A stretch of DNA of 64,000 nucleotides from contig CM119372.1 of the NCBI GenBank assembly GCA_051294905.1, positions 40,116,001 through 40,180,000 on the forward strand, written 5' to 3'. Position numbers and translations under genes: made by a program. How positions within the stretch are numbered: the stretch's first letter is position 1; every line of letters starts with the position of its first letter. The DNA is from Botryllus schlosseri (taxonomy: Eukaryota). Below, in pieces: positions 6,790-58,505 of this stretch. A model generated the notes under the pieces. That model was given only the letters and a program-made list of their open reading frames with translations, made no database searches and was not told the DNA's origin.

Positions 6790-6969
<180 letters not shown>

Positions 6970-9460: not shown

Positions 9461-9672
9461 CAGGTCTTAGTAACAAGGAGCGTATTATTTCATTTCACTA
9501 CTCACAGAAATCATTTCTCCCTGCTCAACTCGAATCATTGTTACTAGCCTTATTAATATATCTATCCATCTATCTTAAACCGATAGCGAATAATTATATA
9601 TATATATATAAAGGAAAATGTAAAGCAATATGAGCTATATACAATATAATAATATATAGATCAAAACTTCAG

Positions 9673-30941: not shown

Positions 30942-33900
30942 ATGGCTTTCTCTCAAGAGAAGTATATCCGCGTGCCGGTTCTAGATTTATTACCGAGCTC
31001 TCAAGACTCTTCGAAAGTATTCAACCACTTGGACAAAATGTTGTCGAGTTTCATATCGGCTGCAGAGTCTTCTTTGCCATCGACCAGCAGCACGGACACT
31101 GGACAAGAATCTAGCAGTGGCCGCCCCGGGGCAGTTCTCGATAAGTTGGCTATTTTGATTGGTTATATATCGCCATGCGTGTACGCTTTGATCGAAGATC
31201 ATGGCACGTTCGAATCTGCCATGGCACACCTAACCAAGTTATATCGGAAGAAAAAGAGCACCATATATGCTCGACATTTACTCGCAACTGCTAAGCAAGA
31301 CTCTGGTGAGACCGTCGCTGATTTCTCACAAAAGTTGATCGCTCTATCGCGTGATTGCAATTTTGAAACTGTTAATGCAGAAGTGCATAAAATGGAGGCC
31401 GTGCGAGATGCCCTAATTACTGGCTTGCGGTCCTCTGGCATTAGATTGCGTCTTCTCGAACATGATGAGTTAACACTCGAAAAAGCCATGCAGATAGCAG
31501 ACTCTCTTGAACGGGCGCAAGCGTTTTCCTCGTCCTATGTAATATCGCCTCCTACCGCTAACATGGTTCCGGGAAATCAGGAAATGCAGAAGACTTTACA
31601 TAGGCCTGATCAATCGCCTGTGTTGTCTTGCGGCTCTGAATTAGCTGCATTACAGAAGTCTCCTGAAAAAAAGAAGTGCTTATTTTGTGGCGGTTTCCAT
31701 ACGATGCTTCGCAAGTTTTGTCCAGCCCGAAACAGCGAATGCTCGAGATGTGGCCGACGGGGTCACTTTGCCAAAGTCTGCAAATTCAATTTGGCTTCGC
31801 TAGCCGGTGTACCCGGTTCTTTGAGGCGTTCGACGTTGGAAGTTTTTGTTGCTGAGAGGTTGGTCAAAGTACTTGTAGATTCGGGAGCATACGAATGCTA
31901 CATTAGCTCATCGTTCGCCAAAATTCTCAATCTCGTTCTTACTCCTCGGGATTACACTATTACCTTGGCATCAAAGTCATCTTCTGCTCGAGTAATTGGT
32001 CACGCATACGCGACACTTCGTATTGAAGATAAAGATTACGGCGCCACTCAATTATGCGTCGTTGATGAATTGTGCGCCGACGTAATTATCGGCTTGGAAT
32101 TCCTCAAACAGCATAAGAGAGTTATATTTGAATTCGGTGGGCCGAAGGGAGATCTCGTAATAGGACGCAAGCATTGTGCCGTAGCTGCCGCTAAAGTGAG
32201 TGATCCGCCTGAAATATTCAAGTTTGTCGATCCAGCTGTAAAGCCTGTAGCTGTGAAGTCGAGAAAGTACAGCTCAGAGGATCGATCTTTCGTACGGAGC
32301 GAGGTGTCGAAGCTCCTGGATGAAGGCGTTATAGAGAAGTCGGTATCTCCCTGCCGAGCTCAAGTTTTGGTAACCAAGGACCCTCGACATAAGAAAAGGT
32401 TAGTGATTGATTACTCGCGGACGATAAATCGACACACCCCTTTGGATGCTTATCCACTACCAAAAATTGATGATATTGTCAATGAAGTTGCAAAAGGTGT
32501 CGTTTATAGCACGATCGATCTCAAGTCTGCTTATCACCAGGTGTCTCTCTCTGCGGCCGACCGACCCTTCACAGCTTTTGAAGCTGATGGCTGTCTGTAT
32601 CAATTTCGTCGCCTACCCTTCGGCATCACCAATGGGGTCGCTGCATTTCAGCGGTTCATTGATAAATTCATAGCGGACAATCACTTGAAAGGCACAATAG
32701 CTTACTTGGATAATGTAACTATATACGGAAGGAATCAGAAGGAGCACAATGAGAGGCTCTCTTCGTTCATGACCGCCGCTGATTCAACAGGTCTGACTCT
32801 AAATAAAAATAAATGTGCGTTCGGGGTTTCGAAGCTCTCACTGCTCGGCCATCTGATATCCCACAATGATATTCGACCGGATCCGGATCATTTGCGACCG
32901 TTAACGCAAATGCCGGCTCCAAGCGATACTCGTAGTCTGAAGCGCTGTTTGGGCATTAGGGCTCTTCAAAAATGACTTTTTTTCTCAAATCGTACTGGCT
33001 ACTTGATAAAATTGTTAGGTTACCTAATTTAAGCCTACACACAAAATTTGGTTCAATTCCAGCCAGTAACCGCTTTGCTACAAGAGAAGAAAGTTTCTAT
33101 TTATTATCTAAAAATAAATAATGAAAAATTTGAAATTTTTCTGTTCACCCCATGAAAGTGTTAGGCTGTCTATAGAAACGATCCTCACCAAATTTGGTTC
33201 AATTCCAACCAGTGGAAGCGGAGTTATTGCCGTCGAAAAATTCGGATTTGAATAAAATAGTATTTACGGTGACCGATTCTTTGCTTATTTATTATAGTTG
33301 TGCTCACCGTAAATACTATTTTATTCAAATCCAAATTTTTCGACGGCAATAACTTCGCTTCCACTGGTTGGAATTGAACCAAATTTGGTGAGGATCGTTT
33401 CTATAGACAGCCTAACACTTTCATGGGGTGAACAGAAAATTTTCAAATTTTTCATCATTTATTTTCATTTAATAAATAGAAACTTTCGTCTCCTGCAGCA
33501 AAGCGGTTACTGGCTGGAATTGAACCAAATTGTGTGTGTAGGCTTAAATTAGGTAACCTAACAATTTTATCAAGTAGCCAGTACGATTTGAGAAAAAAAG
33601 ACATTTTTGAAGAGCCCTATTGGGCATGTTTTCGTACTATTCAAAATGGATTCCGTCCTTTTCCGACAAAGTGAAGCCCCTGTGTGAAAATGTCGTGTTC
33701 CCCTTGCTTGAAAAACAGAGAAACGCGTTTGAAACGTTAAAACAGAATCTACTTCGCGCCTGTTTGAGCTGTGTCTATGATGACGAACCGTTTCAAGTTG
33801 AATGCGATGCTTCCGAAGTTGCGATCGCCTCTATTTTAAGCCAAAAAGGCAGGCCTGTTGCGTTCATGTCTCGAACGCTATCAAAATGCGAAATGAAATA

Positions 33901-35298
33901 CCCCGCTGTAGAAAAGGAAGCTTAGGCCATTGTCGAGTCTCTTCGAAAATGGGATTATCTCTTGAACCGAAATGAATTTAAATTGATAACGGACCAAAAG
34001 GCATTATCTTTCATATTTCGAAAAGACCATCCGAGTAAGATTAAAAATGCAAAGCTCACTCTGTGGAAACTCGAGTTAAGTCCGCTAAAGTATCAAATAA
34101 TTCACCGCCCTGGATCCGAGAATATCGGACCTGATACTCTGTCTCGGGTTTGTTGTTCGTCCCCAGGCCAGCCACACATGAGCCTTCAAGAGATCCATGA
34201 AGCGCTGAGTCACCCTGGGATTCGACGACTTGATCACTTCGTCCGATCCAAGAATCTACCTTTTTCAATGGAGGACGTTAAAAGAACTTGTGCTAAGTGT
34301 CAAATATGTGCTAAATTGAAACCTCGGTTCTTCATGTCTAATGAAACGAACAAGTTGATAAAAGCTACTCGACCATGGAAACGTATTAGCATCGATTTCA
34401 AAGGTCCCGTTGATGGACTCAGAAAGTTTGTACTTGTTATTATTGACGAATGCAGTCGCTTCCCATTTGCTTATCCTTGTTGCGACATGACGTCGTCAAC
34501 GGTAGTCAATTGTCTCTCATCCTTGTTTTCGCTTGTCGGTGTACCGGAATATGTACACAGTGACAGGGGTGCCTCATTTCTATCTAAGGAAATCACCGAT
34601 TTCTTGACACGCAAGCGTATTGCCACCAGCAAGTCGACTCCTTATAACCCCACAGGCAATTCGCAATGCGAGAGGCTTAATCAGACTTTGTGGAAATCCG
34701 TCAAGTTGCTTTTGGAAAGTCGGAGATTGCCGGAGAGACATTGGGAATCGGTTTTGCCGGATGCTCTGCATTCCATCCGGTCGCTCTTATGCAGGGCAAC
34801 TAATTGTTCTCCTCATGACAGGTTCTTCAAGTTTGAAAGGAGATCCATGTTGGGCGACTCCATCCCCGACTGGCTTCTTCATGGCGGCACCGTACTTCTA
34901 CGAAATTTTGTGCGGAACAAAGGCGACCCCCTCGTTAATGAGGTAGAAATATTGGATGCCAACCCTAAATACGCCTTAATACGTTACAGAAACGGCGTAG
35001 AATCAACGGTTTCCGTTAAAGATCTCGCACCCTACCCTGTTTCTACAAAGTCTTCTGAGGCGCTTGAAAGAAAGGAAAAAGAGTTTTCCTCAGTCTGCGA
35101 TACAACGGAACCGTCATCCGATGAACTTACGACGTCGTCCAGCAGCGAAAAACATGGCGTTACTTGTAAAACATTTTCTCCGTGTCGCGACGAAGTAGTG
35201 GAGCCCAGTAGCAGCGTATAGATGTCGGGGAACCTCCACTGCGCCGATCCACGCGCATAAGGCGCGCTCCCGAACGTTACGGGCAAGGGACCTCGTAA
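30942..35298 (+). pseudogene. Single-frame gag-pol polyprotein, disrupted
   Basis: Zn knuckle CSRCGRRGHFAKVC, protease LVDSGA, RT (DLKSAYHQ, LPFGI, YLDN), RNase H (ECDAS), integrase HHCC and D-D-E. Lesions: MITE at 32957-33619, in-frame TAG at 33923-33925, and a late frameshift (terminal LRRSTRIRRAPERY motif is in another frame, stop at 35296-35298). Confidence 0.95.
32957..33619. mobile_element. Foldback hAT-type MITE inserted in pol
   Basis: Near-perfect palindrome with ~310-bp arms, termini TAGGGCTCTTCAAAAATG; 8-bp TSD TTGGGCAT. Removing it restores the frame CLGMFSYYSKW. Confidence 0.97.
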
Positions 35299-36083
35299 AA
35301 GCTAGTCCCTATTTTTCTTGGTGGGGGTGAATGTGGTGATTGTTGTGATTGTATAAGTGCTGATTACTGTAATTAGTTTACTTTGCTCTGTTCATTCCTT
35401 TCGTACCTCAGTTGCTTATATCTGTGTTGTCGAGTGCATGTCCTAGTTCCGTGAAGTTGATTGTAGCCGAATTTCAGTTAATAAAAACCTAGAATGCTGT
35501 CAAGCAGTTTCGTCTTCGTCTATACCTACGCTTTCCTCGAAAGGTCACCACAGCCCTGACTATAGGACTACCAATTATGCTGTTTTTAGCCGGCTAAGCA
35601 GTATACATCTCGACGTATTCAACCGTGAGTAACGTGTTGCACATCTAGTTATCATATGGTTACCATACGTCCTCTTTTAAGATGATTAGTCCTATTTTTT
35701 GATTTATATTAAAGTGTCCTCGGAGGACGCCAAAATGTCTTCTTTTTTGTGATTTTGTCTTTTTTTTGAGGATTTTGGTTACATATAGGGCCAAATTTGG
35801 CTGATATACATTAAGTCAGCAGTAGGAACGCTGCGGCGGCTATTTCGGAAGCTGCTGGACCGGAAAGTTGACCTTTTTTCAGTCAACCACCTGTTAATGT
35901 GAAAGAAAAACTGTATTTTCCGGGAGTTGAGCTTGTTTTTCATTTTTAGTCAAGCTACCACGAAGTGGGAAAAATTTACCATTTTTCAGGATTTTCCTCC
36001 GGTTTTGAAAGTTATCAATACCTATTTATATCTATAGCTAGGGTTCGTTCAACTGGAAAGTTAGGGCACATTGCATTGAAGCA

Positions 36084-37371: not shown

Positions 37372-39362
37372 TTGAAGCAGCAGTGACGTAACGCTAGCAG
37401 TCTATACTCACAACTTTCCTGCAATTCTATAATTAAAACTACAGAGGTCAAGCCAAGCAAGAGTATTTTACACTTATAAATTTTATTTTTTGTCATAAAT
37501 CGATTTCTTAATATATTTTGGGAGCCACAAGAAGGCTTATCTGGGGGCCGCGCTTGGGAATCACTGGTCAAGACTGTTGTATTCCGAAATCGATAGCGCA
37601 TTTCACTGTGCTGCGATTGTCCAATTGTTAGCGAATAGTGCATGAGGCAAATTCGTTTGTGCCTTACCTGGCCATTGTTTCTCTGCGATGGCATTGTTTG
37701 TAATAAAGCCGAATGCCACCTTCCTTGGCGATTTTGAGGGGGGTCTCGTGGTCTGACACTGTTATTATTTGGATTTCCGGAATCAGTGTGACGATAGCAT
37801 TTGATTGATACCAGTTGTAATGAATTCCGAGCTTTTTATGATGAATTGCATTGTCGCAGGTGAGGCATGACCCGCCCGTGCCTCACCTATGCAGCAACTC
37901 TCCTTTCGCGCTGTATTTTTGAATAATGATTATGAAAATTGATGATGTTGTGTGAAAAAATGCTCAAATTTAGTTATTTATGGACATCGATGTAAAATAT
38001 CAATAACCATCGACTCATGGAGGGTTTCACAATTTTCAGTGATTCGCCCTGGCGACAGGTGAGGCACTGCCGCACCTGCCTCATTGGACCGCACGTCACT
38101 GTGGAACGTGCATGCCCGTGTCCAATGCCCATTCATGTCAGCGAATGCCTCCTTCATGGATGCTATTGCTATCTCTGGGGCCGTATCAGCTAGTGAAGAA
38201 TAGTGATGTTGGGCACGAGAGAATGGCTTATTTTGAACAACAACAACAATATTTTTAATGGAAATCAATTTCAGCATTTTAAATGCCTTCCGAAATCACG
38301 AATCAGGTCACGGGCCGCGTGTTGGTGATCCCTGTTCTAATTGGTCTTATTTGACACCTGCAGTTTGTAATTCTCCAAAAAAATTCAGTTCGAAACGCAA
38401 CTAGATTTGTAAAGATCGTTTAACCTTTCATTTGGGTTCACGGTTCACTTAAACTCGCCTTATCTGTCTAGCGCGCGACTACCACCACCGCGAGATGGAG
38501 CTATAAAGTCGCAATCGTTACTTACGCTGGTAGTTCCTAATTTCGGTGATTAAAATACATTCATACAGATTCACAGGAAGTGTTGAATTGAATTGTGATC
38601 GTAGAAGATCAACCACTCTGACTTATCATCGACATGGTTATCCAATTCGAGAACAAGACTTTGGGCGTCGATAATAACGTTGGATTAGCAATAAAGTCGA
38701 TTATCGCGTTCGTCGCGATTTATCAACCCAGGAAACCGGTTGATCACAGCGCATGTAGTTAGTGTTAATCACATGATTTAACAAACTACATCTAAAAAAC
38801 TGCGTGTTAGATACTATATCTAAAAATACTGCGTACGCTGCTTACCTTTCCTACGCCCAAATATTTTCGATAATGTGCCGACTGTCTCCTAAATAATGGC
38901 TTCACTAAACAATCAACGAATTATATGTACCCGTCATTGCAGAGCGATATCAATATTCCGTTATCCGTTTCTCAGCTGTACCGTATGAATTGGACACGAC
39001 TATCATTTCGCGATGATGATAATTCTGTGCAACTTTGCATTTATTCATAGGTTAAATGCCGTAATAAATGATCAAACTGAAATACAAAAGAACAGTTACA
39101 TCGATTGGCCTAATCCCTATTGCTCCAACAACTCACAAGACGTGGGTGTTAATATATACATGCACGCACGTCGCACAATCACAACAACAAGAAGACGAGA
39201 TCGCTCATGCGTTTAGGGAGACTACTAGAGAGAGAGATAGTAGTAAGAGATAATCACCCCCCCCCAACTCCTAACGAAATCAACGTGCATTGAGTGAGGA
39301 GTTCAAAATACAGCGTGTAGAGAACGTCCAACCAAATACTCTAATGGCGATTGGAGCGGGAA

Positions 39363-39975
39363 TCAACATAAAATTTGTGCCCCAATAACGTAGTCCTTGT
39401 GCCATACTGGCGGAGTAACATTTCTGCCCGAGCGCTGGCGTCTGTCATTAGACGGTGCGGCAACACTAGTGTCGTCGATCGGTACTTCAACTGGTAGATG
39501 ATCTTCTGCACTCAATTCGGTGGATCTCAGCGCGCCAGGGTCTGCCTCATTTGACTGTCCACTTAGAGCGGGTGGCGAAACGACTTGAGGTGACATGGCT
39601 GTGCCGGGAGACGAGACCGTTGGCTGAAAAGGTGTGTGCTTTTGGTTCTGGAAGTACGGCTCAACCTTACGCAGAAATTTCCTGTTGCGCAGCGTCAATC
39701 TGCCGGAACCGTCCACTTTCACGAGGTACTGGTCATGGTCCCGGCACTGAACCACAGTGCCGGTTCTGTCCCAGCGAAGGGGATAACGACCGTTTTGGTT
39801 TTGAATGCGACAGACATCACCTTCAAGAAGCGGTGATAATGGCTTAGTGTTCAACGACAGAGATTCCAGCTGCTTCGCAAATCTGGTACGTAACGTGTGC
39901 TCGCGACTCTGCCAGAGGTTCCTCCTTAATGGCCTGATATTGCGCTGGGTGAAAACTGGGACCCATGCTTTGATT
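39363..39975 (-). pseudogene. Gypsy integrase C-terminal fragment
   Basis: LSPLLEGDVCRIQNQ...WDRTGTVV...QYLVKVDGSGRLTLRNRKFLR and terminal RSGRNVTPPVWHKDY, typical of Gypsy integrase C-termini; fused directly to the LTR. Confidence 0.85.
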
Positions 39976-41134
39976 GGCAACTTTGCATTTATTCATAGGT
40001 TAAATACCGTAATAAATGATCAAACTGAAATACAAAGGAACAGTCGCATCGACTAGCCTAATCCCTATTGCTCCAACAACTCACAAAACGTGGGTGTTAA
40101 TATATACATATACATGCACGCACGTCGCACAATCACAACAACAAGAAGACGAGATCGCTCATGCGTTTAGGGAGACTATTAGACAGAGAGATAGTACACT
40201 GTAAACGAAAATGGTGTGTTTTCGCAATTCACACCCTAGCGTAGGGTGTGTTTTGGGTCATCACACCTATTGGGTACTAAATTTGTCATTTACATCTAAG
40301 CTATTGGTGGAAATGAGCCGAACTCACCCCTACACACATATACCATAAGATATACACCCCAAGCATTGGCATTTGGGGTGAATTGTTAAAGATTACACCT
40401 TTTGTCAGACAAATATGAAGTTTGGGATTCAATCCGCGCTAGCCGCTTCCACAAAACTTGACTGTTGAAGTTTCAAGTCTGTGTCGCTCAGATTCCTGGT
40501 TAAGCAGGCAGGGGTGCGGCAAGTCTGGATTCTTGTTAAAAATTCAGTCGAATCACTGTACTGATCATTGTATGGGCACTTGAGAACTTCTCTGCTGTGT
40601 CTAACTGTAGGTCGTGTAGGACATATTCTCTTTAGGGTTGAATTATCCACAGAAAATGCGTGTTTTCGCCCACTTTATTGTTGTCCATGTCTTTAAGGCT
40701 TCTTGGGTAGGCTTCGGCAATGTTCCATTGTTCAGTTTTTATGGATTTAACCCGGTTCGATCAAGTAAATTCGCCTACGCATATAGTTTCAGCTTCAGTG
40801 ACAAATAAGCATTCGTTGTATAACATTCGTGTGCTACATTGACATGAATGAATGATAGCTAAGTCCGCAATATCATATTGTAATTCACATTTATCGTGCA
40901 CTGCGGTACTCGTACTTTGGCTGAAATTTCACCCGGTCTACTATAGTGTGACCGATGTATCTCAAGTGTGTCGCAAAAATACGACACATTATGAAGTTGT
41001 CACGATACTGGTTTATAATTTCTTTCATGTCACGTCAAATGCACAATTGTACATTGTACGTAGCCTATATGTACAAAATATATCGGGCCTATTCCGCACA
41101 GCATTAGTGTATAACCACAATATAATGCAGGTTA

Positions 41135-41508
41135 TTATTATTAATATTATTACACATTTTACAGTGGTGCTTCTCGCCTTTTTCAGGCTATGTGCACCAC
41201 GACATGAATGTTTGTAATGTTCATATAGGTCTTTGTCTTTCGTAATGTTGGGGACGACTTCTTCAATCTTTCGCTCATTCAGACAGTCTCTCTCGCATCC
41301 ATGCGCCCCCGTCACGGTCTTTGCTGCCAATTTGTAGCACGGCTCACTTTCGGTCTGGGCTTTTCAAAGCACTGCTACTGCAGTGAGGTCGGCGATGAGG
41401 AGCCCAGAGAAACCTCCGACACATAGAAGTTGGTCCGAACCGGGATTCGAATCACTACCATTGGTGTCGTGGCGCTGGCGTTTAACCAACTGCGCCACTC
41501 GCTTCCCC
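41135..41508 (-). mobile_element. Full-length tRNA-derived SINE
   Basis: A box TGGCGCAGTTGG, B box GATTCGAATCC, (TAA)n-like tail, 13-bp TSD ATAATGCAGGTTA at 41122-41134 and 41509-41521. Confidence 0.88.
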
Positions 41509-43814
41509 ATAATGCAGGTTAAGGGTATTTAGAGCTGCGAATACTAGAAGGAGTTAAATTTCAGCCACAAACTTATATGAGCAGTACGCAATATGGGCGT
41601 AGCAAGAATTCAAATTAGAATGGAACACCAGGTTACGTCACGGAACAATCATTGAATTGGGCGAAAGAGGGACTAAATTGGGCAAAGTTTCCTGGTTATT
41701 TTCATATCTATATTGATGTGTTATTCTATAGAAAGTGACTTTCTATAGTTATTCACTATTTGGTAGCTTTATGAATTGCACACTAAGCCTAACCGACAAT
41801 TCGCATACAGCTTTCGGATCGTATCAATGGTTCGATCTATGAAGATAAATCTAGTACTGCAAGACTTTTTGAAGCTTATTATGATGCAATCTGCAGCTTC
41901 ACAGCTATCAAATCCATATTTTCGATAAATCAATTATAGTATACATACAAATATTCCGGAGATCCTCAACTTCAATATAGTTATTACATCAGTTAGTCAA
42001 TTGTCACATCATAATGGAATATACAAACCGTCGTCACCAGAACAGCTGCTGCTATGTTTGGCTACAGCTATGTAAAATGTTTCGTTATATGCCGTATTTC
42101 CGCGCTTAAGAGACCAGACTGGCTATCGACTGACCGTATTAGTCGTCGTGAATCTGTGAAGAAAGCCTCTTTCGAGATTGAAAATATCTGGATGGTGAGT
42201 TACATTTCGTATCTGTACTATTGTAGTAAAGAACATTTGTTCCGTTGCGTTTCCAGTACAGATCCGATTCCTGTTACTCAGTGTCGCAGCTGTACTGAAC
42301 ACAATTATATGTAGCAAGTTGGAATTTTAAACGTACCGGTAGTGTCGATACATTGAATTAACATAAATTGTTGTATCACCAGTACCGATACCAATCTCCA
42401 AGACACAGTAGCTCAATGTCTCTAATGGAGATACTGTTGACAGGTCCAGCATTAGCTATGATTATAAACTATGGTAATTTGGGTTTGAGCGACATCGTTT
42501 GTAAGTGCATTGAAAAAAAATCGACTCGATTGTCGTTATATTGATTACCAAAGCACATCACGACCTGTTTAAGTGTAAAGGGTAGCCTACCACTGACTAT
42601 GCAGAGCTATATTTATAGGCCTATCACCCTGTCATTATCACTGAGCTATATACACATTATTTATTATGTTATGTTATGGTAGGAAGGTAAACATATTATC
42701 TATTCTACTTCAGACTTGCATGGGCAAAGATCGCAAATTTGGGGCTCTTGAAGCTAATGAAATTATCGATTTCTCCTCATGAGAAAATAAGTGTAACATA
42801 CAAACAGCAAAAGGCTGAAGCATATGAAGCAATGGTATCTGAGGTGAGCAATGGAAATTTCATGAAAGCTTTCGATCCCCGTAAATTGGGGCCAGTACAT
42901 GTTAATGATATTATGACATGGGTGAAAATATGACGATGCTATATTGCCATCACTATGAATATGAGAGACTTGACTAGGAACAGGCTTACCTCATTGAACA
43001 TATTTTGCAGTGGCCAACTCAGACTATCTGTTAAGAGTATGTGACCCATCAACCAGACTACTTCTTTTGAAACTACTTCTCTGAGTTCTGTTCATATATT
43101 TATTTTAATTTGAAGCAGCTTGACATAGCCACTTCTATATGCTTTCATTGAGTAGAAATTGACATCTATTGTTTGAGTAGCAATGCGCACTACTGCGGTC
43201 AACTCGGTGTGCAACAATGCACGGGTTAGCTGGGTCTTCAATGTTTTAACCAATATGAAGAGGCAAACATAGCCTTGCCAAAGTTTATCAAACCATCCTT
43301 TCGATCAATATAAACAAATCATAATATATGCACTTCTTGACTCATGATATGACATACACACGATCTGTGCATATGCACAAATCTGCTTTTTGTTAGATTC
43401 AAGGACTGATTGCTATTAGTAGCAGACTCTTACTCTGTGAATGTGAAATCAAATATGTTGTTGGTGAGTAATATACTATGCGTAGGATAGTTACAAAATT
43501 GTACTTTAACTCGCTTATTTACAAGCATAAAGCAAGTCAAGGCTACAACATCAGTACACATTTCGGATGTCGTGGGCCTTTCGAATCCAATCCAAATTGT
43601 CAACTAAACGTTTACCGTATGCCTTATGGTTATTTTTTCAATTTTAGGATGCTGCTATACAAGCTAATATCATGGAATTTCAACCAAATCGACGTCACAT
43701 TTAACGGTAGAAGCGTATGCTGCAAAACAGTAAAGGATCGTTATCAAACAGCTTATATTTCAAGGTAATCATTATCATTCAGCTAATTTGCAAATTTCCA
43801 TGTATAGGCTAAGG

Positions 43815-44189
43815 CAGTGGTTCCCAACGTGGGCGATATCGCCCCCCAGGGGGCGATTTGGCGGTCTAGGGGAGCGAAAATGACGAAGGGGGCGACACGG
43901 GGGCGAAAATGGACAAAGGGGGCGACGGGGGGCGAAAATAGGAAGGGGCGATAGGGGGGCGATGACGCGTCAAAACGGCTGACCTTTTTTTTTAGTCAAC
44001 CCACGGAAATTTAGTTACAAAAGTGTGTCAAATTAGACATCGAGCCGAAAATTTAACCTTTTTTTTTTAGTCAACCCGCCGGTGATTACAGTTTGTATGC
44101 CCAATTTTCGGTACACAAAATTTTGGGGGCGATGATCGGTGTTGACCTTGAAAAGGGGGCGATGGGTCGAAAAAGGTTGGGAACCACTG
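43815..44189. mobile_element. hAT (Charlie-like) MITE with GGGGGCGA repeats
   Basis: TIR CAGTGGTTCCCAAC/GTTGGGAACCACTG; TSD GGCTAAGG; absent from duplicate copy 2. Confidence 0.92.
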
Positions 44190-45051
44190 GGCTAAGGCAA
44201 GTCAAGGTTTCCTAATCAGACCTGTATCTGCGGTCGCTTTGAATCCATTCTGAAAGTCAATATTGCCCAATTCGAAAACGTTTCGTGTTTTGGATTAATA
44301 CCAAGTAGTCAAATTTAAATCAAGTCCATGCATCTCTTTCTCTGATTATTTTTTAAATTTTAGGATGCTGCTTAAAGACTGCATGCTCCAAGAGCAAGAT
44401 TATATCACTGGAACTAACCGAGTTTAGGAGTATGCTGCGACAACTGAAAGACTCGTTATCAAGCTAGCAGGTATGACAACTTTGTTAACGACACCTGATG
44501 TCAACTTTCGTAGTCGCATATATGAAGTAAACCAAAGCAGAGATGGTCAAAGTTACCAGCGTTGCTACTCAAGTCGATGTAGAAATACCAACTTCAATTT
44601 ATACTCGATTACAAGTAGATGCAACAGTTCCCAATACAAGTCAAAACTACGTCAAGTGGAAGTAGAATACGAAATGTCGGAAAAATAGTCAAGTATGGTA
44701 AGTAGTTTTTCGGAAGTTTGTACTTTGAAAATTGCAATATGAATCTTCGCGACTAATATAAAATTACTAATGGCATATGACACTACTAACAGGAACAATC
44801 TTCAAAAATATATTCAGTTATTCCTGGTACAGGTGGTGTTGCTAGACTTGGACAACTAGATATTCTAGTTGTCTAATTATACTAATTGAAGCTATTCTAA
44901 TTTTTGAAATGTTTCTATGCTCTAATTCTAATCGAATTTATGAAATCTTTCTATGGTCTACGGTAATTTTAATTCTAATCTAATGTCTGGGTTTCCTGAA
45001 AAAGCTAGAGGAGAACTGTAGAATGCGAAACGAGCCAAGCTTGCGGTGCAG

Positions 45052-45699
45052 TAGGGGTGTTCAAAAATGACTTTTTATCTCAAATTCTACTCGCTACTTG
45101 ATAAAATTGTTGGGTTACCTTATTGAAGCTTGCCCACTAAATTTGGTTTGATTCCAACCAGCAGCCGCATTGCTACTGGAGAAGAAAGTTTTTTTAATTT
45201 ATTATATTAAAATGAGTCAAAATTTTCTGTTCACCCATGAAATTGTTGTCTATAAACGATGCCCACCAAATTTGCCACAATTCAAACCAGCCGGAGCGGA
45301 GTTACTGATGTCGAAAAATTTGGATTTGAATAAAATAGTATTTACGGTGGGCACAACTGTAATAACTGATTAAAGAATCGGTCACCGTAAAAATACTATT
45401 ATATTAAAATCCAATATTTTTCAACAGCAATAACTCCGCTTCCACTAGTTGGAATTGAGCCAAATCGGTTGGCAATGTTTCTATAGAAAACCTAACAATT
45501 TAATGGGGTGAACAGAAAATTTCAAATCTTCTTTTATTCATTTTCATATAATAAAAAAAAAACTTTCTTCTCCTGTAGCAATGCGGCTACTGGTTGGAAT
45601 CGAACCAAATTTGGTGTGCAGGCTTAAATTAGGTAACCTTACAATTTTATCAAGTAGCCAGTACGATTTGAGAAAAAAATCCATTTTTGAAGACCCCCA
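45052..45699. mobile_element. Foldback MITE, same family as 32957-33619
   Basis: Same palindromic sequence; right TSD missing because the duplication junction follows. Confidence 0.9.
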
Positions 45700-46237
45700 G
45701 CGCACATATCAGATGAGTTTAGAATCCAATCCAAATTGTCAACTAAACGTTTATACCTCATGGTTATTATTTCAATTTTAGGATGCTACTATACAAGATC
45801 ATGTCAGGGCATTTTAACCAAGTCGACGTCGCATTGAACCATAAAACCGTATTCTGCGAAACAGTGATGGATCGTTATCAAACAGCACATATTGCAAGGT
45901 AATCATTAGCATCCAGTTAATTTGCTAATTTCCATGTATAAGGCAAGTCAAGGTTTTCTAATCAGACCTGTATCTGCAGTCGCTTTGAATCCATTCTGAA
46001 AGTCAATATTGCCCAACTAGAAAACGTTTCGTGTTTTGCATTAATACCAAGTAGTCAAATTTAAATCAAGTCCATGCATCTCTTTCTCTGATTTTCTTCT
46101 AATTTTAGGATGCTGCTTAAAGACTGGATGCTGCAAGAGCAAGATTATATCATAGGAACTAACCGAGTTTAGACGTTTGCTGCGAAAACTGAAAGACTCG
46201 TTATCAAGCCAGCAGGTATGACAACTTTGGTAATGAC

Positions 46238-47114
46238 TAGGGCAATTTTTTTTTACCTAAAACAGGAAGATTTTGACCTTTTTTGACTTAAAATAACTGA
46301 AATTTGACCAAATTTTGACCTCACGTATGCAAATTAGGTGTTTTCGCATATAATGTTAAAATTGTACTACTTATCTTCATTTCTGGTTGGAACTGTCTGT
46401 CCTTACAAAGTAGATTGGGCTGAAAAAACGTTTTTTGCTCAAAAATTGACAGATTTTTACATGAAAAACTAGTATTTTAACGAAATCTGGCCCTATGAAG
46501 AATTCCAGTAGTTACATTTCGTATTCTGGTGGAAATAATTAAAATTTGTTGTAGTACAACGAAAGATCCTTTCCTACATTCTCGGGTAGAAAGTGTATGT
46601 CCTTACTACGTAGCTTGCCAAGAACGGAGAAAGAATGTTCAACAGCAGCATTTGTTGGCTGACAACACTCAAGTTGTGTGCACACTGCTGGTGACAAACC
46701 GTGTTGCTTCATTCTGACAATGTTGTCTATATCACAATTTTTCAGCTTGCGCTTCTAGATATAAGAACCATGCAATGTCCAAGCATTCTTGCTTCAGCTA
46801 GGATATTTTGGTACGTTGACCATAAAACCATTTCCATGTTTGTTTCATTTGACCCTTTATGATTCACAATGAGCAGACGATGGTCCGTTTACAACGGTAG
46901 GCCTATGAAGTAGGCTACAAGCTGTAAAATATCAAATGATAAGTTCACCGACAGCACAAAATCTACGATACAAACGAAATGCAGAGGTCAAAAAATGTTT
47001 GACTTTGTAAACAATTTTGACAAATTTTGTAAATAATTTTGACAAATTTTGACCTAACGCTACAATTTTGACCTAATTTTGACTTTTTTTGACATGTCAA
47101 AAAAAATTGCCCTA
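46238..47114 (-). mobile_element. Internally deleted hAT element
   Basis: TIR TAGGGCAATTTTTT/AAAAAATTGCCCTA; TSD GTAATGAC; TTTTGAC subterminal repeats; decayed dimerisation-domain coding sequence; absent from duplicate copy 1. Confidence 0.92.
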
Positions 47115-47413
47115 GTAATGACACCTGATGTCAACTTTCGTAGTCGCATCTATGAGGTAAACCAAAGCAGAGATGGTCAAAGTTACCAGCGTTGCTACTC
47201 AAGTCGATGTAGAAATACCAACTTCAATTTATACTCGATTACAAGTAGATGCAACAGTTCCCAATACGAGTCAAAACTACGCCAAGTGGAAGTAGAATAC
47301 GAAATGTTGGAAAAATAATCAAGTATGGTACGCAGATTTTCAGAGGATTCTACCTTGAAAATTGCAATATGAATCTTCGCGACTAATATAAAATTACTAA
47401 TGGCATATGACAC

Positions 47414-48769
47414 CAGGGGCGTAGACAGGGGGGTAGAATTGAAGAACGTTCTACCCCCTTCCAGGCTCGATTCTATCCCGAAAATCCCAAGTCAACGCTA
47501 TTGTTATAACAACATTTCATCACGTTATCGCCTAATTTCAATTTGCTGCGCGCGACGCCGATCGCCGACGCTGATTACATGCCCTTTTCTCGTCGATCTC
47601 TCGTCTATGGAAGCGCGTCTATGCAAGCGTGAAAGGGCCATTGTTAGATTTTTCTCTTGGCGAGGGTTAGCGATCAGCTTAATCCCTTCATTTATTCTGA
47701 ATGCAGCCGTCGCGCAACAATAACATTTGTCGCGTCGTTCACGCGTTGTTTTCTCATCAACAGTTCATTGTAAACGATAACGAACATTAATAACATGAAA
47801 ATAACAACTTATTTTTATTACTGAATGAAATGTTTTAAAGCAATCGCATCTCAAGTCTGTTCCCCAAAACAGCGTGAAGACATAATACATTCGATTCGCA
47901 TTTTATATTTGACGCCATTGTTGTGCATCGTCTTGACCTCAATGACCATGTATACGTCATACTAGGTTATGCCTTTCGTGATCGGTATCCCACCGGGACG
48001 CATTCAGCCTTCAATAGCCGCGCCGAAACTTGTTTGGGATTCCCTGGCTTTGCGAATAGGTCATTATTCACACGCCGGTACAATTAGTATATGCGCCTTG
48101 TTCGAAAGAGAGAGAGAGAGTCTTTATTTTTCATCGAACCAAAATACATAACAAACGGCAGTGATGGTGGTACAGAAAATATGCGTGCACAGTATTCGGT
48201 ATTAGATAGGAATGATCGATAAGACCGTGAAGGTCATCTAGTCTGATCACACCAGCATCAAACAGGTACACTTGACTCAGAACAGTCTGGCTGTAAAAAA
48301 GTGTTTAGTTAGGAAAGGAAAATAGAAAAAAAATTAAACAATGGTAGCAAATGATCAATGAAGCAATGTCTGGGCGGGGTAGGGTAATGAATGGAATTAA
48401 AACGCCGAGAAGACGTTACTCTTACACGCGAATTGAATCATGTCAAAATTCATGAAGATATAACAGATTCTGCGCTGTATAGATTGTTCGTCGTGAAATG
48501 TTGTTCTGGTATTGTTTCAAGGTCGATTACTTATTTGAATACAAATAAGATCTCCTGCACTGTCACGGGATGAGCGCGTGCGCATCGTAACATGATCCCC
48601 GTGCAAGTTGTTGATTGCTAACTCGCTTTCGGTAATTAGATCCGCCAATTAGTTACGCTTTCAAAAGCGTACGGAATACAGAAATCGCTAAAGGTATGAC
48701 GCATAGAGGCTCATTCTGCCCCCTTTATTCAGTTCTACCCCCTTTTTATCTCGGCTGGCTACGCCCCTG
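47414..48769. mobile_element. hAT-type non-autonomous element
   Basis: TIR CAGGGGCGTAG/CTACGCCCCTG; TSD TATGACAC; empty site at about 44776-44783 in copy 1. Confidence 0.92.
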
Positions 48770-49029
48770 TATGACACTACTAACAGCAAGAATCTTCAAA
48801 AATATATTCAGTTATTTCTGATATGGGCGGTTGCCAGTATTCTAGTTGTCGAATTATCCTAATAGAAGCTATTCTAATTTGTGAAATGTTTCTATGCTCT
48901 AATTCCAATTCTAATCGAATGTATGAAATCTTTCTATGGTCTAATTTTAAGTCTAATCTAATGTCTGGTTTTCCTGGAAATGCTACAGGAGAACTGTACA
49001 GTGCGAAACAAGCCAAGCTTGCTGTACAG

Positions 49030-49685
49030 TAGGGGTGTTAAAAATGAATCTTTATTCTCAAATTCTTCTGGCTACTTCGTAAAATTGTTGGATTACGGAA
49101 TTGAAGCCTAAACACCAAATTTGGTTCAATTCCAACCAGTAGCCGCATTGCTACAGGAGAAGAAAGTTTTTTTATTTATTATTTAAAAATTGGTAAAAAA
49201 ATTCAAAATTTTCTGTTCACCCATGAAAAATTGTCTATAGAAACGATGCCCACCAAATTTGCCTCAAATCAAACCAGCCGAAGCGTAGTTGGTGATTTCG
49301 AAAAATTTGGATTTGAATAAAATAGTATTTACGGTGGGCACAACAGTCATAAATGATTAAAGAATCGTTCACCGTAAATACTATTTTATTCAAATCCAAA
49401 ATTTTGTGACGGCAATAACTCCGCTTCCACTGGTTGGAATTGAGCCAAATCGGTTGAGCATTGTTGCTATAGACAACCTAACAATTTAATGGGGTGAACA
49501 GAAAATTTTAAATCTTTTTTCGTTCATTTTCATATAATAAATAAAAAAACTTTCTTCTCCTGTAGCAATGCGGCTACTGGTTGGAATCAAACCAAATTTG
49601 GTGTGCAGGCTTCAATTAGGTAACCTAACAATTTTATCAAGTAGCCAGTAGATTTGAAAGAAAAAGTCATTTTTGAACACTCCTA
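49030..49685. mobile_element. Foldback MITE, same family as 32957-33619
   Basis: Palindromic; 8-bp TSD CTGTACAG at 49022-49029 and 49686-49693. Confidence 0.92.
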
Positions 49686-52404
49686 CTGTACAGTAGAAAT
49701 TTGCTATTCTCATGCTTATAAGATGAACTATGATTTGATGATAACGGAGTTTGATTCAACTTTTGGCGATTTCAGTAATTCTAATTCTAATCTAATTTGA
49801 AAAAAACTGTTAGGTAGAATTATAATTTTAATCTAATTTCCAACTGTTTAGCTCAAATTTTAATTCTACTCTAATTCGAAAAAAAAACTTGTAGTTGTAA
49901 TATAATTTCAATCCAATTTGGAAAAAGGGAACGTTTTCTAGTTGTCCAAGTCTGCCTTTTACATGCGGTTTGCATGAAAACTATCCATCAATTTCCATCT
50001 TGTCGATGCCTAATTGCCCACACATACAGTGATCGTGTGTGAACATGTTTCCTATAGCGGTAAGTTCACCCTATCGGACCACAGTCTGTGCTGCAATTCC
50101 TTAGCAAGTGTAACATCTGATTTTTTGTAAGTACTTTGTGAAAATATATATACTTTGTAATGGCTTCTATTTTTGTGGTCTTTCATTAAGTTATGCATGT
50201 TAGCATATGTGATTGTTATTTGGGTTGTGAATATGCATTTTGATTTCAGGATGATGCCACAAGTTCTTGCTGAAGATAGTGACTCAGCCTTCGCCGTACA
50301 AGAGTGTATTTCGGAAACCTGGAGGAGGCGACTTCCCAATACTACATGGGCAATGTTCTTCGAGCAGTATTTTCAGTGAATTTTTTCTCCGTCGCTGGGA
50401 TCTCTGTTTTTGTTATTTCACGAAATATGTTTCCATTTTATGTTATTATGATTCAATTGATATCGAATATATGCAATCAAGAAAGTTTATTTGCAATAGC
50501 GTGCCATTTGGAAGAAGATGCAGGATTTCAAGTGGGGTGTATATATTGAAATTCCGCCCCAATCAATTCTAATGGCTAGGGTGAGATATCCGATATACAC
50601 CTCAAGGAATGGGGTGGATTCTGGTCATTCACACCGGCAGGGTTACGTAAGTTCTGTTTTCGTGTACCACCTTTTGGGGTGTGTATAACCACTCTTTTCG
50701 CTAAGAGTGTAGTAAGAGATAATCACACAAATTCTACCTATTGCAGTGGAGTATCCGTAACAGCAGGCTGCTGTTTCATTCAACAAATTGGCAACTGACA
50801 GAACGCGTTTTCGCATTGTTATTAGGGTTACCATGCGTCCTGCTTTAGGAGGATTTGACCTCTTTTTCGGGTTTTTGTAAATGCTCTCAGAGGACGACTA
50901 AATGTCCTCCTTTTTGGCAATTCGTCCTCCTTAACAGCTTATAGAGCTAAGATAGTGGTGAAAATGGGCATAAATGCCGCTAAGTAGGAACGAACGAAAG
51001 TGACGACCTTTTTTAGTCAACCAATGTAAACTTTGAAAAAAAAACTGTATTTCTGGAGTGTTTTTATTTAGTCAATCAACGGAGAATTTGAAAAAAAAGT
51101 GTTATGCTACCCCTACCACATATAACAGTGGTTCCCAAACTTTTGTGGCTTGTGGCATAAACATTATACAACCCACACGGCACACTTACAAGAAAGTTGC
51201 TTGAAAATCTACTCACGTGGTACTTCGATGGCTATGCTAGTTCATACGAAAATACATTTGACTGAAGCGAGGTTTAATTTTTGACAAACCCGCATTTCGT
51301 CGTTTTCCAAGCAGTGTCGTTCGGTAACAGCTGTAAATGTCAATCAAAACGAAAAGCAATTATGTTCGCATACAAATTATGGAGCAAATGACAATATAAT
51401 TATAATTGTAATATCATGGAATAGGATTTGGAAGGAGGCATGCAAAACGCATCAATTTGTTTGTGAAAACAGCGTTTTAAAAAAGCGGGGCGTTTCATAA
51501 GTCAATCAGCTGTTCCTCTTCAAAACGATTGCTTGATTTATGACTTCCAAATGAACTACCCACCATGCATTTGCTTAATACAAAACTACAGCATATCCTC
51601 GGAAATATTGTTGAAGTGAAGGTTTGGGACACGATTTTTTGTTCATGAGTTGATTTGGAACGAATCAAAGAATTTCTGCGAGACATACCATCCAAATTGT
51701 GATGTGGACATTACCGTACTCAACGGCAATGCCATGATTGCTTTCATGGTCATGGTCTCGTGGGCTTTGTCCGCTATTGAAAAAGTTAGACCAATTCTAA
51801 GTCGGATATGCCAGTCTTACATGCCCTATCTTCAATATTAAGCAGTTCTTTTCCAAAATCCACAGCACACATGACAATCTGTGACGGCACCCAGTTTAGA
51901 ATCACTGACATACAATATAATGCCAGTCGTACACAGAATAGTGGTAATTTGTAGTGTTGTAGCTTGCGGTTTAGATACTATCGATTGGTTGTCCGAATCA
52001 CACGAAACATGTGGTGCAAAGTTACGCTCATTTATGGAAAAGACATTTATCTGTGAAGTCGTGATCAACGCACAGCATTGTTACAAAGTGCCATAAAATA
52101 GGCATGGTCCAAAATATACCAAATCCTCTTTGAACTGATGAACAACTGGCATGCATTATATTGTCTGTGGTCTCATAAAAGGTATCTATATGTATTTCCA
52201 CATCGTTCGTATTGTTTTAACGTCATAATGAGTGGTACTTGAATACTCGACTCCACTAGAAGCTACATAATAGATTCATAATAAAATGACTCAAGTACTC
52301 GATTTGGCCCACTCCTGCTATTGATAATGACCGACAAATCAGGAGGGGAGAGGGGAAAAGTTATTTACAAAAGTCCATTTCACTGATTTTTCTCCCTTCA
52401 TAGC

Positions 52405-52729
52405 TTATTTAAAGTCAGAATCGTCATCGAATCTTATGCGAAACTTCATCTGCGAATAACGCAGCTGTTTGTGGGATAAACCATCATACCACCAGATTCC
52501 TTGGTCGCCTGTTTTGTTGAAGTTTCCATTCAGATTGCTATACCCGCATTCTCCATACCACCAGCCCCCTTCGTAAGTGCGAGCGCAGTGCCAACCAGTG
52601 CCGGGGTCAGCGTCTTTCGTTGAAAAAGCGCGATTGTTGTACGTTGGCAAACCATTGCCGGACGCATTTCCGGAGAACTCGCCTGCTTGCAGTCTGTACT
52701 TCGAGGAAGCAGATGAGACTCGGAAATAC
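52405..52729 (-). CDS. Terminal exon of a fibrinogen-related domain (FReD) protein
   Basis: YFRVSSASSKYRLQAGEFSGNA...AFSTKDAD...CARTYEGGWWYGECGYSNLNG...GIWW...SQMKFR; candidate acceptor ATTATCCAG at about 52730. Upstream exons not found. Confidence 0.8.
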
Positions 52730-54118
52730 CTGGATAATGAGAATTTGAAGACCTTCTTGGAGGTACACAACTTCAATTCTATATTGAAAATGGTAGTGAA
52801 CGTGTTGAAATGGCATGTAACGTGAATTTCGAGATTTCGCGATATATGCCACAGGGACCGGGGTGGTCAAAGTAGCAATCGCCGATATTCAAGTAGAATT
52901 AGAAGTAACTGAGTAAATTTATACCCGAGTACAACTAGGAGTAGCGATTTACAAGTAAGGCGAAATATTCTGGGACTGATTTTCCCTAAAAACGAAAACG
53001 GTCAAGTAGAAGTAGTCTAAAACCATAACCACTTAAGTAATTAATGCAAGAATGCGAACCTACTTGAGTCTTTGGCAAATAATAAGTACTTCTTTACCGA
53101 CCATCTCTGGTCAAGTAGGACTGAAATTGAGACTTTAAAGAAAGATCAGAAGAAAATTAGGCTGAGACAGATCATTTCGTTTTGCATGCCACAAAAGCCC
53201 ATGGCCACGCTGAACTGCTTAGCCAATTCCCTGTGTGTCTGTAGTGGCTTACATGAAATGGAATTGACGAATGCGACAACTTAAAGGAGGACTGCGCTTT
53301 AAAAATGATGTGGTCTCAAATTGAAGGCAAAAACGAACAAAATTTTTTGGCCGCAACCATTTCCTTCAGAACGCCACCGTAATGGAGCTGCAATTTATTG
53401 AAATTTCTACAAGACCTTCACGCTCCAGCTGCCGCGGCTGCTTAACCCGTTGCATGGTACGATGTCTTCATCGTCGCGCTTGCTCGACGCGATAAGGGAG
53501 TCACGCACAGAACGAACTTTGGACATATTACCTTCATAACATCGGCTGACAATTATCTAAAATTCGCTCTCTGACTGCCTCATTATTTCGTCTCGATATT
53601 GCCTTACTGCGACCCTGCTGTAGACTGACTATATATGATGGCTATGACTGGTTGGATCGGTCTCTTGAATCTATAGAAAATGATCCACCGCAATCAATAA
53701 CTTGTCAGAGATTTTCCTCACTAGATATTGCTCAACTGAAGTCTTTTAAGACAGAGCTGAATCACATTCTGTCTGCAGCAATGCGTTAGAGACTGATGAT
53801 CGTGGATATGTATTCCACGTACTTATATATTCTAAGAGCTCTAGTAATGGAAATTACTAACTGAGACAAGTCTGATATCACTATCGTGGAAATGTCTTCC
53901 ACGTATACACCTGTATTCTATGAGTGATCTAGAAATGTAAATCACAAACGGTACAGACAGAGAGACATTTCATTGCTTCGTACAAAATCAACAAATATCA
54001 CTGGAAATTATGGTGTAACTTGTAAAAGGTCTTATTATTACTCGTCGCCAACACAGAATTGGTGTGATACAGTGCATTCATTTTACCATAGGATAGATAT
54101 AGTGTGCAAGACTGCAAC

Positions 54119-56708: not shown

Positions 56709-57585
56709 CTGCAACCAGGGCTTTGGAGCAGCCGTAAATTTGCATTGCTCCAGCTCCGGAGCTTTCTTCTCTCATACATTAGCTCCGGAGCAGCATTATT
56801 GCCCCTGCTCCGGCTCCAGCTCCGGCTCTGAAAACTATCGAAGGTGTCTGTCTATATCAGGGGTGTGCAACCCGCGGTCTGCGGGCCATATGTGGCCCAC
56901 GAGAAGGTTTTGAGTAGCCCACGAGCTAATTTCCCATTATATTATCGAAATTCTGTTATATTATCGAAATTGAATTGCTCAGATTGTGAACTTGCAAGGC
57001 CAACCAAAAATATAATTAATATGGCCGGGATGTTGATGACTAAAATGTCAGTTCCGACGCATTGGCAGATCCAGGGTGAAGCAGTCACATTTTTAATAAA
57101 TCGTCGTACATTACAATAAACTAAAAAAGTAGTAAAATTTTTCTTCACGCTTCGCGTGTTTAATTGTCACGCGATTTCTTTCTCTGTAGCCTACCCCACA
57201 CTGAAAATGAAAAAACGCCTGATTTAGCCGATTGAGTCTAACTATAGAGTATGACTGGAGTGACGACTCGATTGTTCTCCCATTGTTAGCCGGCAGAATG
57301 GTCACGGTCAGATGGCTGCACCCAAAACAGGATCGCTCAGTGCTTGTTTCTATGGCGTTCAAGGGGATTCGTCGTGTAATTCTTGAAGCTGCGTCGGATT
57401 TAGTTAGACAGTTCAACATTTAGGTAGCGGTGGCGAGTCGTTATGACTAGTGAATAATGCCGTGTATCCTCTGTTATATTTTTCGCCAGAATTAGATCAT
57501 ACTTCGTCACGCATAGAAGTCGGTATCATTGCTGATTCGCCGCATCACTTTGGCCTTTGGGGATGACTGGGAGGGACTAACTGAA

Positions 57586-58505
57586 ATGGAAATTGAAGAA
57601 TGTTTCGAAGGACTCAATAACTGGAAAGGTGTGTTTTGTGAGGAATGCGAAGCATCCTTTCCTAATGTGAAAGCTTTGAAGAAACATTACAAAAATCATA
57701 AAGTTCTCACCAGTAATTGGAATATATCTGAGGATGCTGTAATTGCTGTTTTGAAGAGGGCTTGTGTAAATAGCAAAAAATACTTTGAATGCGCGCCATC
57801 ATTCGAGGAACTAGACATGACCAAAGCTGTTCCATTGGTGGAAAAACTCCATTCTGAATATTGTAAACTTGGTGTTGACGGATTTTATCAACATTACTCG
57901 AACATCCTGCCATCAAGCTAACAAGTTTCTGGGTTTGCCACAATTGCCAGCTTCAGCATTGCTTTTGAAGATTTTTGGTTCTCTCGTCTGCGGTAAAGAG
58001 CAGCATACAATCATAGATTGGAGGAGTCAACAGCAAGGAATATGGTAAGTAAATAGCCTATACTTTTCCTTTCCATGGAAAAACTTTGACGTGTTTTTAG
58101 ACATACTTGAATATATTTGGTGGAGTGCTTTTGGAAGCCATTTCTAAGCAAGCCAACGAAGCAAAGGCCACATGCCTAACAACTGCAGCGCCATCGGGAA
58201 ACCTCATTAAAGTGATGCAGAAGAAAGACGGTGGATTGAAGAGCCCGTCTAAATAGTTTCATGGCACGGTTCTCCGCTTTTATGTTATCCACAGTAAAGA
58301 AATGGCAAAACCCCTGAAAAAGATACATTTTTTCAGGGTAGTTGAGGCAATTCAATGCGATCCATTCGATAACAAATTGATTCATACTGTATCCCTTCAA
58401 TCTGTTTCAGACCTAAATGAGGTTGAGGATGTCATGGACAAGGCAATGAAACACTTGAATAACATCTGTTCTCACAATTCTCCAAATGTTTGCGACATAG
58501 CTTGA
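57586..58505 (+). pseudogene. C2H2 zinc finger plus P-transposase C-terminal-like domain, two exons, frameshifted
   Basis: FCEECEASFPNVKALKKHYKNH; intron 58045-58100 (GTAAGT...TTTTTAG); then ILEYI/GGVLL and NLIKVMQKKDGGLKSPS, resembling the YIAGYV and RGGLxxPS motifs of P/THAP9 transposase C-termini. Confidence 0.65.

What the first reader, a model, noticed from the sequence alone, without database searches (positions are those of the whole stretch)
40197..50709. 10.5-kb CACT...AGTG transposon carrying an unrecognised spliced gene
Seen: CACT termini, TA TSD, subterminal repeats and an interior with no transposase I can recognise. It holds a run of plus-strand exon-like units with good splice sites and a decayed minus-strand frame at about 40430-40850. 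Established: EnSpm/CACTA elements can capture host sequence, best documented in plants. Inference: a Pack-type animal CACTA element that moved a host or accessory gene into an LTR.
Basis: partly seen in the sequence, partly recalled or inferred. Interest (0 to 1): 0.7.

Follow-up and report, generated by a model that had tools for sequence, protein, structure and literature searches.

The report
Enzyme-less CACTA transposon with spliced RNA
This is one of likely hundreds of copies of an animal cut-and-paste transposon with no detectable enzyme gene; the family makes a real spliced RNA, but that RNA has no long reading frame and no host parent gene turned up, so it is most likely a decayed leftover of the transposon's own helper gene, a known and fairly ordinary situation.

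Summary
The element is real. It spans 40197-50709, ends in CACT...AGTG with a TA duplication and subterminal repeats, and sits in one LTR of a retrotransposon remnant whose other LTR shows the empty site. About 3.0 kb is later SINE/MITE insertions and 2.1 kb an internal duplication. DNA contigs cover the core deeply with many variants, so it is a multi-copy family, roughly hundreds. RNA confirms splicing of 42843>43648, 43764>44364 and exon B/B' to 50250, on the + strand; the reads come from sister copies. The spliced RNA has no ATG-started frame over 66 codons. No transposase, helper or host homologue was found; the two strong protein hits are sister copies read through their introns. Capture of a host gene is therefore unsupported, though not excluded, because no genome was available. 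Best reading: a non-autonomous CMC-EnSpm family still transcribing a decayed helper-gene unit, as in Schistosoma SmTRC1. Scan notes describe other EnSpm families with multi-exon helper genes in this genome; none matched this one by sequence.

The parts
39026..39258 (-). Left LTR of an internally deleted LTR retrotransposon; holds the empty site (single TA)
   Evidence: 220 of 232 bases match the split right LTR; AATTC flanks the retroelement at 39021-39025 and 50730-50734, and X1 loose ends show a single AATTC form (23 contigs)
39975..40196 (-). Right LTR, part before the insertion; ends in the first TA
40197..40400 (.). Left terminus: imperfect TIR starting CACT, plus 8 subterminal WCACC repeats in both orientations
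40430..40850 (-).
41134..41508 (-). Nested SINE-like insertion with a 12-bp duplication; absent in other copies
   Evidence: joint 41121>41509 in X15 (depth 120) and X1 (3 contigs); SINE label from its shape, recalled
42080..42194 (+). Probable upstream exon E1 (start approximate; donor 42195); inferred
   Evidence: X24 depth rises in bin 42080-42244; X15 contigs end at 42194 and start at 42165, as a branch at the donor would give; the joint itself is not among the 15 of 198 shown
42714..42843 (+). Exon E2 (donor 42844 shown; acceptor predicted)
   Evidence: joint to 43648: X24 8 reads from 6 starts, X22 1 read, X15 1 contig, X1 none
43579..45717 (+). Internal duplication, copy 1 (exons A and B, MITE)
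   Evidence: 85-95% identical to 45718-49683 in blocks
43648..43764 (+). Exon A (117 nt)
   Evidence: joints on both sides
43815..44189 (.). Nested MITE with 8-bp duplication (hAT-like); absent in copy 2 and in an X15 contig
44364..44470 (+). Exon B (107 nt), an old paralogue of exon A
   Evidence: joint 43764>44364: X24 6 reads, X22 5, X15 1 contig, X1 none; A-B score 46, best of 300 shuffles 34
45046..45705 (.). Palindromic MITE, copy 1 (relatives at 49022-49693 and 32954-33622)
45718..49693 (+). Internal duplication, copy 2, with two further nested elements
45782..45898 (+). Exon A' (21 of 117 bases differ from A); splicing not tested
46109..46215 (+). Exon B' (9 of 107 bases differ from B)
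   Evidence: loose ends before exon F match the end of B'
46238..47114 (.). Nested element with 8-bp duplication (relative at 8693-9432)
47414..48769 (.). Nested element with 8-bp duplication
50250..50480 (+). Last exon F; RNA depth ends about 230 bp before the right end
   Evidence: B/B'-type ends before it in X24 11 reads, X23 63 reads, X15 1 contig; depth steps up at 50246-50274 and falls after 50477
50536..50709 (.). Right subterminal repeats and TIR ending AGTG
50710..50729 (-). Second TA and the rest of the right LTR

Best explanation
This is a copy of a multi-copy animal CMC-EnSpm (CACTA)-type transposon with no detectable transposase, whose family makes a spliced RNA without a long reading frame that is most likely the decayed remnant of the element's own helper-gene transcript. 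SHOWN: the ends, the 2-bp duplication, insertion into one LTR, nested insertions, high family depth, three splice junctions, + strand sense, and no long frame. INFERRED: a transposase from an autonomous partner with similar ends moves it in trans; the ancestor lost its transposase gene; the promoter, splice sites and 3' end of the second gene survived while the frame decayed; exon duplication (A/B, then A-B/A'-B') came before most of the spread; the RNA is a by-product, not needed for jumping.
For: Termini, TSD and subterminal repeats fit animal CMC-EnSpm: 2-bp TSDs and CAC..GTG ends in PMC13189230 and PMC6004678 (passages). Family: X1 summed depth 11-21 thousand over the unique core, against 6-29 for the 16 single divergent X1 contigs listed, and 254 in the bin just outside the right end (the tool warns this is no copy number). 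Two sister copies turned up as gene calls, and three related right ends lie at 6380-7497. Splicing is seen in RNA and not in DNA. The longest ATG frame in three spliced models is 66 codons. A versus A' gives 4 silent and 15 altered codons in the only open frame. Expressed copies carry single-base insertions in exon F: 14 of 41 X24 reads after 50299, and 26 of 37 and 77 of 130 reads after 50380, the latter just past the stop of the 42-codon frame. The RNA ends just before the right subterminal repeats, where a native transcript would end (inference). Precedent: SmTRC1 has 2-bp TSDs, copies inside LTR elements, and spliced transcripts from truncated copies that skip the transposase ORF (PMC1636069, passages and section 8).
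Against: No homology to any helper or transposase protein was shown: Pfam 0 of 96 and 0 of 24 frames; no helper hit; ESM Atlas best scores 0.87 and 0.75, below its 0.9 lead level. The origin of the exons is therefore inferred from position and precedent alone. Stop-free runs of 80 codons or more are mildly in excess (9 against 4.0 expected, P=0.03). The autonomous partner was not seen. Only 15 of 198 joints and 40 of 351 variant rows were shown.
Confidence: 0.6

Rival explanations
1. Pack-type element: the exons are a captured piece of a host gene, later decayed and amplified with the element.
For: Real spliced exons and no match to transposon domains. Pack-TIRs exist in animals: 370 in 100 genomes, a few of them multi-copy (PMC8277862, passages).
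Against: No parent protein: the hits are sister copies called through introns with TGA read as W. No long frame. A and B are duplicates of each other. The last exon runs up to the subterminal repeats. The protein searches are weak for short decayed pieces, and exon A was tested against Pfam only.
Confidence: 0.15
2. The transcript never coded for a protein: cryptic splice sites arose in non-coding interior DNA, and tandem duplication of one intron-exon unit multiplied them, giving a transposon-borne long non-coding RNA.
For: A and B exons are paralogues, and their upstream introns share short motifs (read). No coding signal in any frame. No homologue.
Against: At least four precisely used exons ending near the right end look like an inherited gene layout. 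E2, A, B and F join in one phase apart from one stop and one frameshift in B, as a decayed coding gene would.
Confidence: 0.15
3. The RNA encodes a small working peptide (the 66-codon frame over E2-A-B, or the 42-codon frame in F) that helps the element or the host.
For: The 66-codon frame stays open with either A-B or A'-B'. Its stop in B lies 43 nt before that exon's end. The 42-codon frame is intact in a sister copy.
Against: 15 altered against 4 silent codons for A/A', and 6 against 1 for B/B'. 6 of 8 listed variants in F change the residue in that frame. A frameshift lies inside the F frame in 14 of 41 X24 reads.
Confidence: 0.07

Closest known systems
SmTRC1 of Schistosoma mansoni and its truncated copies (PMC1636069; passages and section 8 read)
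   Same: Animal CACTA-type element; 2-bp TSD; copies inside LTR retrotransposons; tens to hundreds of mostly deleted copies; spliced transcripts, many from truncated copies and skipping the transposase ORF.
   Different: SmTRC1 ends start CCC, here CACT. SmTRC1 has a full-length copy with Transposase_21 and ORFs of several hundred bases in its RNAs; here no transposase and no frame over 66 codons was found.
Zebrafish non-autonomous EnSpm-N49/N49B (PMC13189230, passages) and ENS1_Cis of Ciona savignyi (PMC6004678, passages)
   Same: CACT or CAC...GTG ends, 2-bp TSD, mobilised in trans (N49).
   Different: N49/N49B is 2.5 kb with a 15-bp TIR; this element is 10.5 kb (about 7.5 kb without late insertions), has an imperfect TIR and a multi-exon transcript.
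Animal Pack-TIRs, e.g. Pack-hAT-N8_XT and Ssk-FB4 (PMC8277862, passages)
   Same: TIR ends around an interior with no transposase; can be multi-copy and transcribed.
   Different: Pack-TIRs are defined by an identified parental host locus; none was found here, and the test could not be run on the genome.
Maize En/Spm and dSpm (TnpA/TnpD as described in PMC1636069; dSpm recalled)
   Same: One long spliced transcription unit; subterminal repeats; deletion derivatives.
   Different: 3-bp TSD and CACTA ends in plants; no TnpA or TnpD similarity detected here.

Membership tests
CMC-EnSpm (animal CACTA) | CAC...GTG termini with a short TIR | tested here: met
   CACT...AGTG, 15 of 20 terminal bases match
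CMC-EnSpm (animal CACTA) | 2-bp target duplication | tested here: met
   TA against the empty LTR; one insertion site only
CMC-EnSpm (animal CACTA) | Subterminal direct and inverted repeats | tested here: met
   8 left and 5 right WCACC motifs; 1107 of 1276 windows have 0 or 1
CMC-EnSpm (animal CACTA) | Transposase_21 / DDE transposase | tested here: not met
   no Pfam family passes. Expected for a non-autonomous copy, so membership rests on the ends alone
CMC-EnSpm (animal CACTA) | Autonomous partner with matching ends | not testable with these tools
   no genome held; terminal patterns gave 3 metagenome matches with no similarity beyond the pattern and 1 viral match whose flanks are unlike the element
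CMC-EnSpm (animal CACTA) | Second (helper) gene homologous to known accessory proteins | tested here: inconclusive
   no hit; no helper-protein profile was available to compare directly
Non-autonomous family | Many dispersed copies sharing ends and interior | tested here: met
   depth and variants; sister copies; related ends
Pack-TIR / Pack-CACTA | Interior matches a parental host locus not linked to the transposon | tested here: inconclusive
   protein searches gave only sister copies; a DNA search of the genome was not possible
Pack-TIR / Pack-CACTA | Interior is not derived from the transposon's own genes | not testable with these tools
   needs the autonomous parent
Protein-coding gene | Continuous frame across spliced exons under purifying selection | tested here: not met

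The most novel reading that the evidence does not exclude
An animal CACTA family captured a multi-exon host gene and spread it to hundreds of sites. It now yields a family-wide spliced RNA and offers its last exon as a splice trap to host transcripts; 4 X24 reads enter exon F from sequence not found in this window. This would be a high-copy, transcribed Pack-CACTA in an invertebrate, where multi-copy Pack-TIRs are rare.
Probability: 0.12. Interest if true: 0.55.

Novelty: new member of a known kind. Interest (0 to 1): 0.2.

Why it matters
It matters mostly for annotation. The family produces real spliced RNA and fools gene callers (two sister copies sit in protein collections as 135- and 184-residue calls), yet it shows no protein-coding signal. 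It is a clean example of layered nesting: repeat, LTR remnant, CACTA element, then SINE and MITEs. If a host parent were found, it would be a rare high-copy Pack-type element in an animal and a case for studying how captured exons spread.

Tried and rejected
Own genome: none held, so sibling cargo and a parent locus could not be compared directly.

Pfam: 96 stop-free frames (best E 0.025) and 24 read-through frames (best E 0.021, CCDC22_N, below its cut-off); nothing passed.

Rfam on 38000-52000: 3 matches, all below gathering score, two of them on palindromic MITEs.

Minus frame: 0 of 46 candidates. The single phmmer hit (E 3e-5) is a 2082-residue repetitive bacterial-type protein matched in 7 weak stretches; rejected. 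The other two minus frames were tested against Pfam only, and the minus frame has no ESM Atlas result. A resemblance of this frame and of exon F to 'SAMD3-like' helper proteins was recalled from memory; no call supports it. A family variant at 40715 also turns a codon of that frame into a stop (4178 of 8365 X1 depth; codon read by hand).

ESM Atlas on exon F and on E2: best scores 0.87 and 0.75, leads only. Exon A (38 residues) was too short for the locus search.

Terminal patterns in metagenome and viral contigs: 4 matches, judged chance.

Run search: no RNA holder listed; RNA evidence comes from laid runs. The X15 label 'RNA' is the tool's guess.

Earlier findings by sequence: none for three stretches.

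Literature: 7 searches; no listing described this family or tied SAMD3-like proteins to CACTA. No supplements were read.

Rejected readings: 3-bp GTA duplication; Transib or Chapaev (longer TSDs, recalled); frame 2 of exon F as the coding frame (4 of 8 variants silent, but it opens with a stop).
Full report
Boundaries. The stretch 40197-50709 interrupts the right LTR of an internally deleted LTR retrotransposon. The left LTR (39026-39258) carries the empty site, and the two LTRs match at 220 of 232 aligned bases once the insertion and one TA are left out. AATTC flanks the retroelement, and 23 DNA contigs show the form with a single AATTC, so the retroelement itself sits in a repeat. The inserted element starts CACT and ends AGTG; 15 of the first 20 bases match between the ends. 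A 3-bp GTA duplication is formally possible, but related ends at 6444 and 7497 also finish in AAGAGTG with different bases after them. A WCACC motif occurs 8 times in the first 200 bp, the highest count among 1276 windows, and 5 times near the right end. These features fit animal CMC-EnSpm elements: a zebrafish non-autonomous element has a CACT-starting TIR and a 2-bp duplication (PMC13189230, passages), and ENS1_Cis has CAC..GTG ends with a 2-bp duplication (PMC6004678, passages).

Anatomy. Much of the length is not cargo. A SINE-like insertion with a 12-bp duplication and three elements with 8-bp duplications add about 3.0 kb. An internal duplication (43579-45717, repeated from 45718) adds 2.1 kb, with blocks 85-95% identical, and each half holds a palindromic MITE. 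Summed DNA depth over the duplicated B region is 1.68 times that over the unique core, which suggests that most family members carry the duplication (inference).

A family, not a single event. In DNA run X1 the unique core has summed depth 11-21 thousand. The 16 single divergent contigs listed have 6-29, and the bin just outside the right end has 254. The tool warns that summed depth is not a copy number and overlapping contigs inflate it, so I read this only as 'likely hundreds'. This copy differs from nearly all others at 5 of the 40 variant rows shown (45 in all) for the 862-bp right-end lay. Three related right ends lie in forkhead-gene introns in the same window; alignment scores are 67, 67 and 42 against shuffle maxima of 30, 31 and 25.

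Splicing is real. In one search (4 runs, likeness 85; 15 of 198 joints shown), the joint 42843>43648 (GT..AG) appears in 8 X24 reads from 6 starts, 1 X22 read and 1 X15 contig. The joint 43764>44364 appears in 6 X24 reads, 5 X22 reads and 1 X15 contig. Neither appears in DNA run X1. In one search, loose ends before exon F match the end of exon B/B' in 11 X24 reads, 63 X23 reads and 1 X15 contig. RNA depth steps up at 50250 and falls after 50477. In X23, depth on the exon is about 150 for reads with the first mate on the minus strand against 4-8 for the other direction, which I read as + strand RNA (library chemistry inferred). An upstream exon ending at 42194 is suggested by a contig branch at that donor, but its joint was not shown. 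The RNA comes from sister copies: at 50451, 23 of 23 and 28 of 28 reads carry the family base; at 44465, 10 of 10 and 88 of 88. Nothing shows that this copy is expressed, and the individuals sequenced may not carry it.

No protein-coding signal. Three spliced models give at most a 66-codon ATG frame. A sister-copy gene call shows a TGA just before the ATG (inferred from W standing where the window has TGA). Exons A and B are paralogues (score 46, best of 300 shuffles 34) that differ by 10 nt in length. A versus A' has 4 silent and 15 altered codons in its only open frame. Expressed copies carry a single-base insertion inside the 42-codon frame of F in 14 of 41 reads. The minus-strand frame has 6, 8 and 7 stops in about 140 codons. 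Against this reading: stop-free runs of 80 codons or more number 9 against 4.0 expected (P=0.03), though the longest, 106, is ordinary (P=0.54). Also, E2, A, B and F join in one phase apart from one stop and one shift in B, as a decayed coding gene would.

No homologue. Pfam gave nothing above cut-off for 96 frames or 24 read-through frames. Searches with exon F and with E2 gave one hit each; both are sister copies translated through introns. One minus frame gave 0 of 46 candidates and one spurious repeat-protein hit among 1.84 billion. The ESM Atlas gave 0.87 and 0.75. These searches are weak for short decayed pieces, and exon A was tested against Pfam only, so absence is not proof.

How it most likely works. 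Shown: a CMC-EnSpm-type element with intact ends and no detectable transposase, present in many copies, with a spliced + strand RNA that ends about 230 bp before the right end. Inferred: a transposase from an autonomous partner moves it in trans, and the RNA is what remains of the element's own second gene, kept because copying in trans preserves promoter and splice sites without selecting the frame (0.6). SmTRC1 is a close precedent: 2-bp duplications, copies inside LTR elements, and spliced RNAs from truncated copies that skip the transposase ORF (PMC1636069, passages and section 8). Scan notes report other EnSpm families in this genome with 8- or 9-exon helper genes. These are unchecked AI notes that I could not test, and none matched this element by sequence. 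Rivals: host-gene capture (0.15; animal Pack-TIRs are known, PMC8277862, passages), a never-coding RNA built by exon duplication (0.15), and a small working peptide (0.07). Other papers seen as passages: PMC12730594, PMC11202377, PMC8978399, PMC12905397 and 10.1101/2021.11.16.468883.

Verdict. This is a new member of a known kind, filed on its ends alone because the transposase is absent. Interest 0.2.

Noticed in passing
window 6380-6444, 7250-7305 (-), 7405-7497: Three relatives of the element's right end in introns of the forkhead gene; the two at about 7240-7497 face outward and may form a small MITE with two right-type ends. No matching left end was found for the one at 6444.
   Followed up: partly
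window 50250: 4 X24 reads enter exon F from other sequence (agreement 0.6) that is not in the window; possibly host exons spliced into copies elsewhere.
   Followed up: partly
window 40760-41090: A + strand RNA peak in the single-cell run X22 (depth 21-28) upstream of the mapped exons; could be internal priming or another exon.
   Followed up: no
window 39026-50729: The host LTR element keeps only about 0.7 kb of interior, with a 209-codon frame that has no Pfam match; a C-run next to the left LTR looks like a polypurine tract on the minus strand.
   Followed up: partly
window 30695-35522: A separate Gypsy-type element with protease, RT, RNase H and integrase matches, LTRs 98% identical, and its pol frame split by the same palindromic MITE family at 32954-33622.
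   Followed up: partly
window 57241-62395: A 5.2-kb stretch bounded by 229-bp inverted repeats (94%), holding a C2H2 zinc-finger frame at 57517-57918; probably another DNA transposon.
   Followed up: no
window 5390-10359: A multi-exon forkhead gene (Forkhead match E 4e-21 for the exon at 6823).
   Followed up: partly
window 52405-52866 (-): A fibrinogen C-terminal domain frame (E 2e-15).
   Followed up: no
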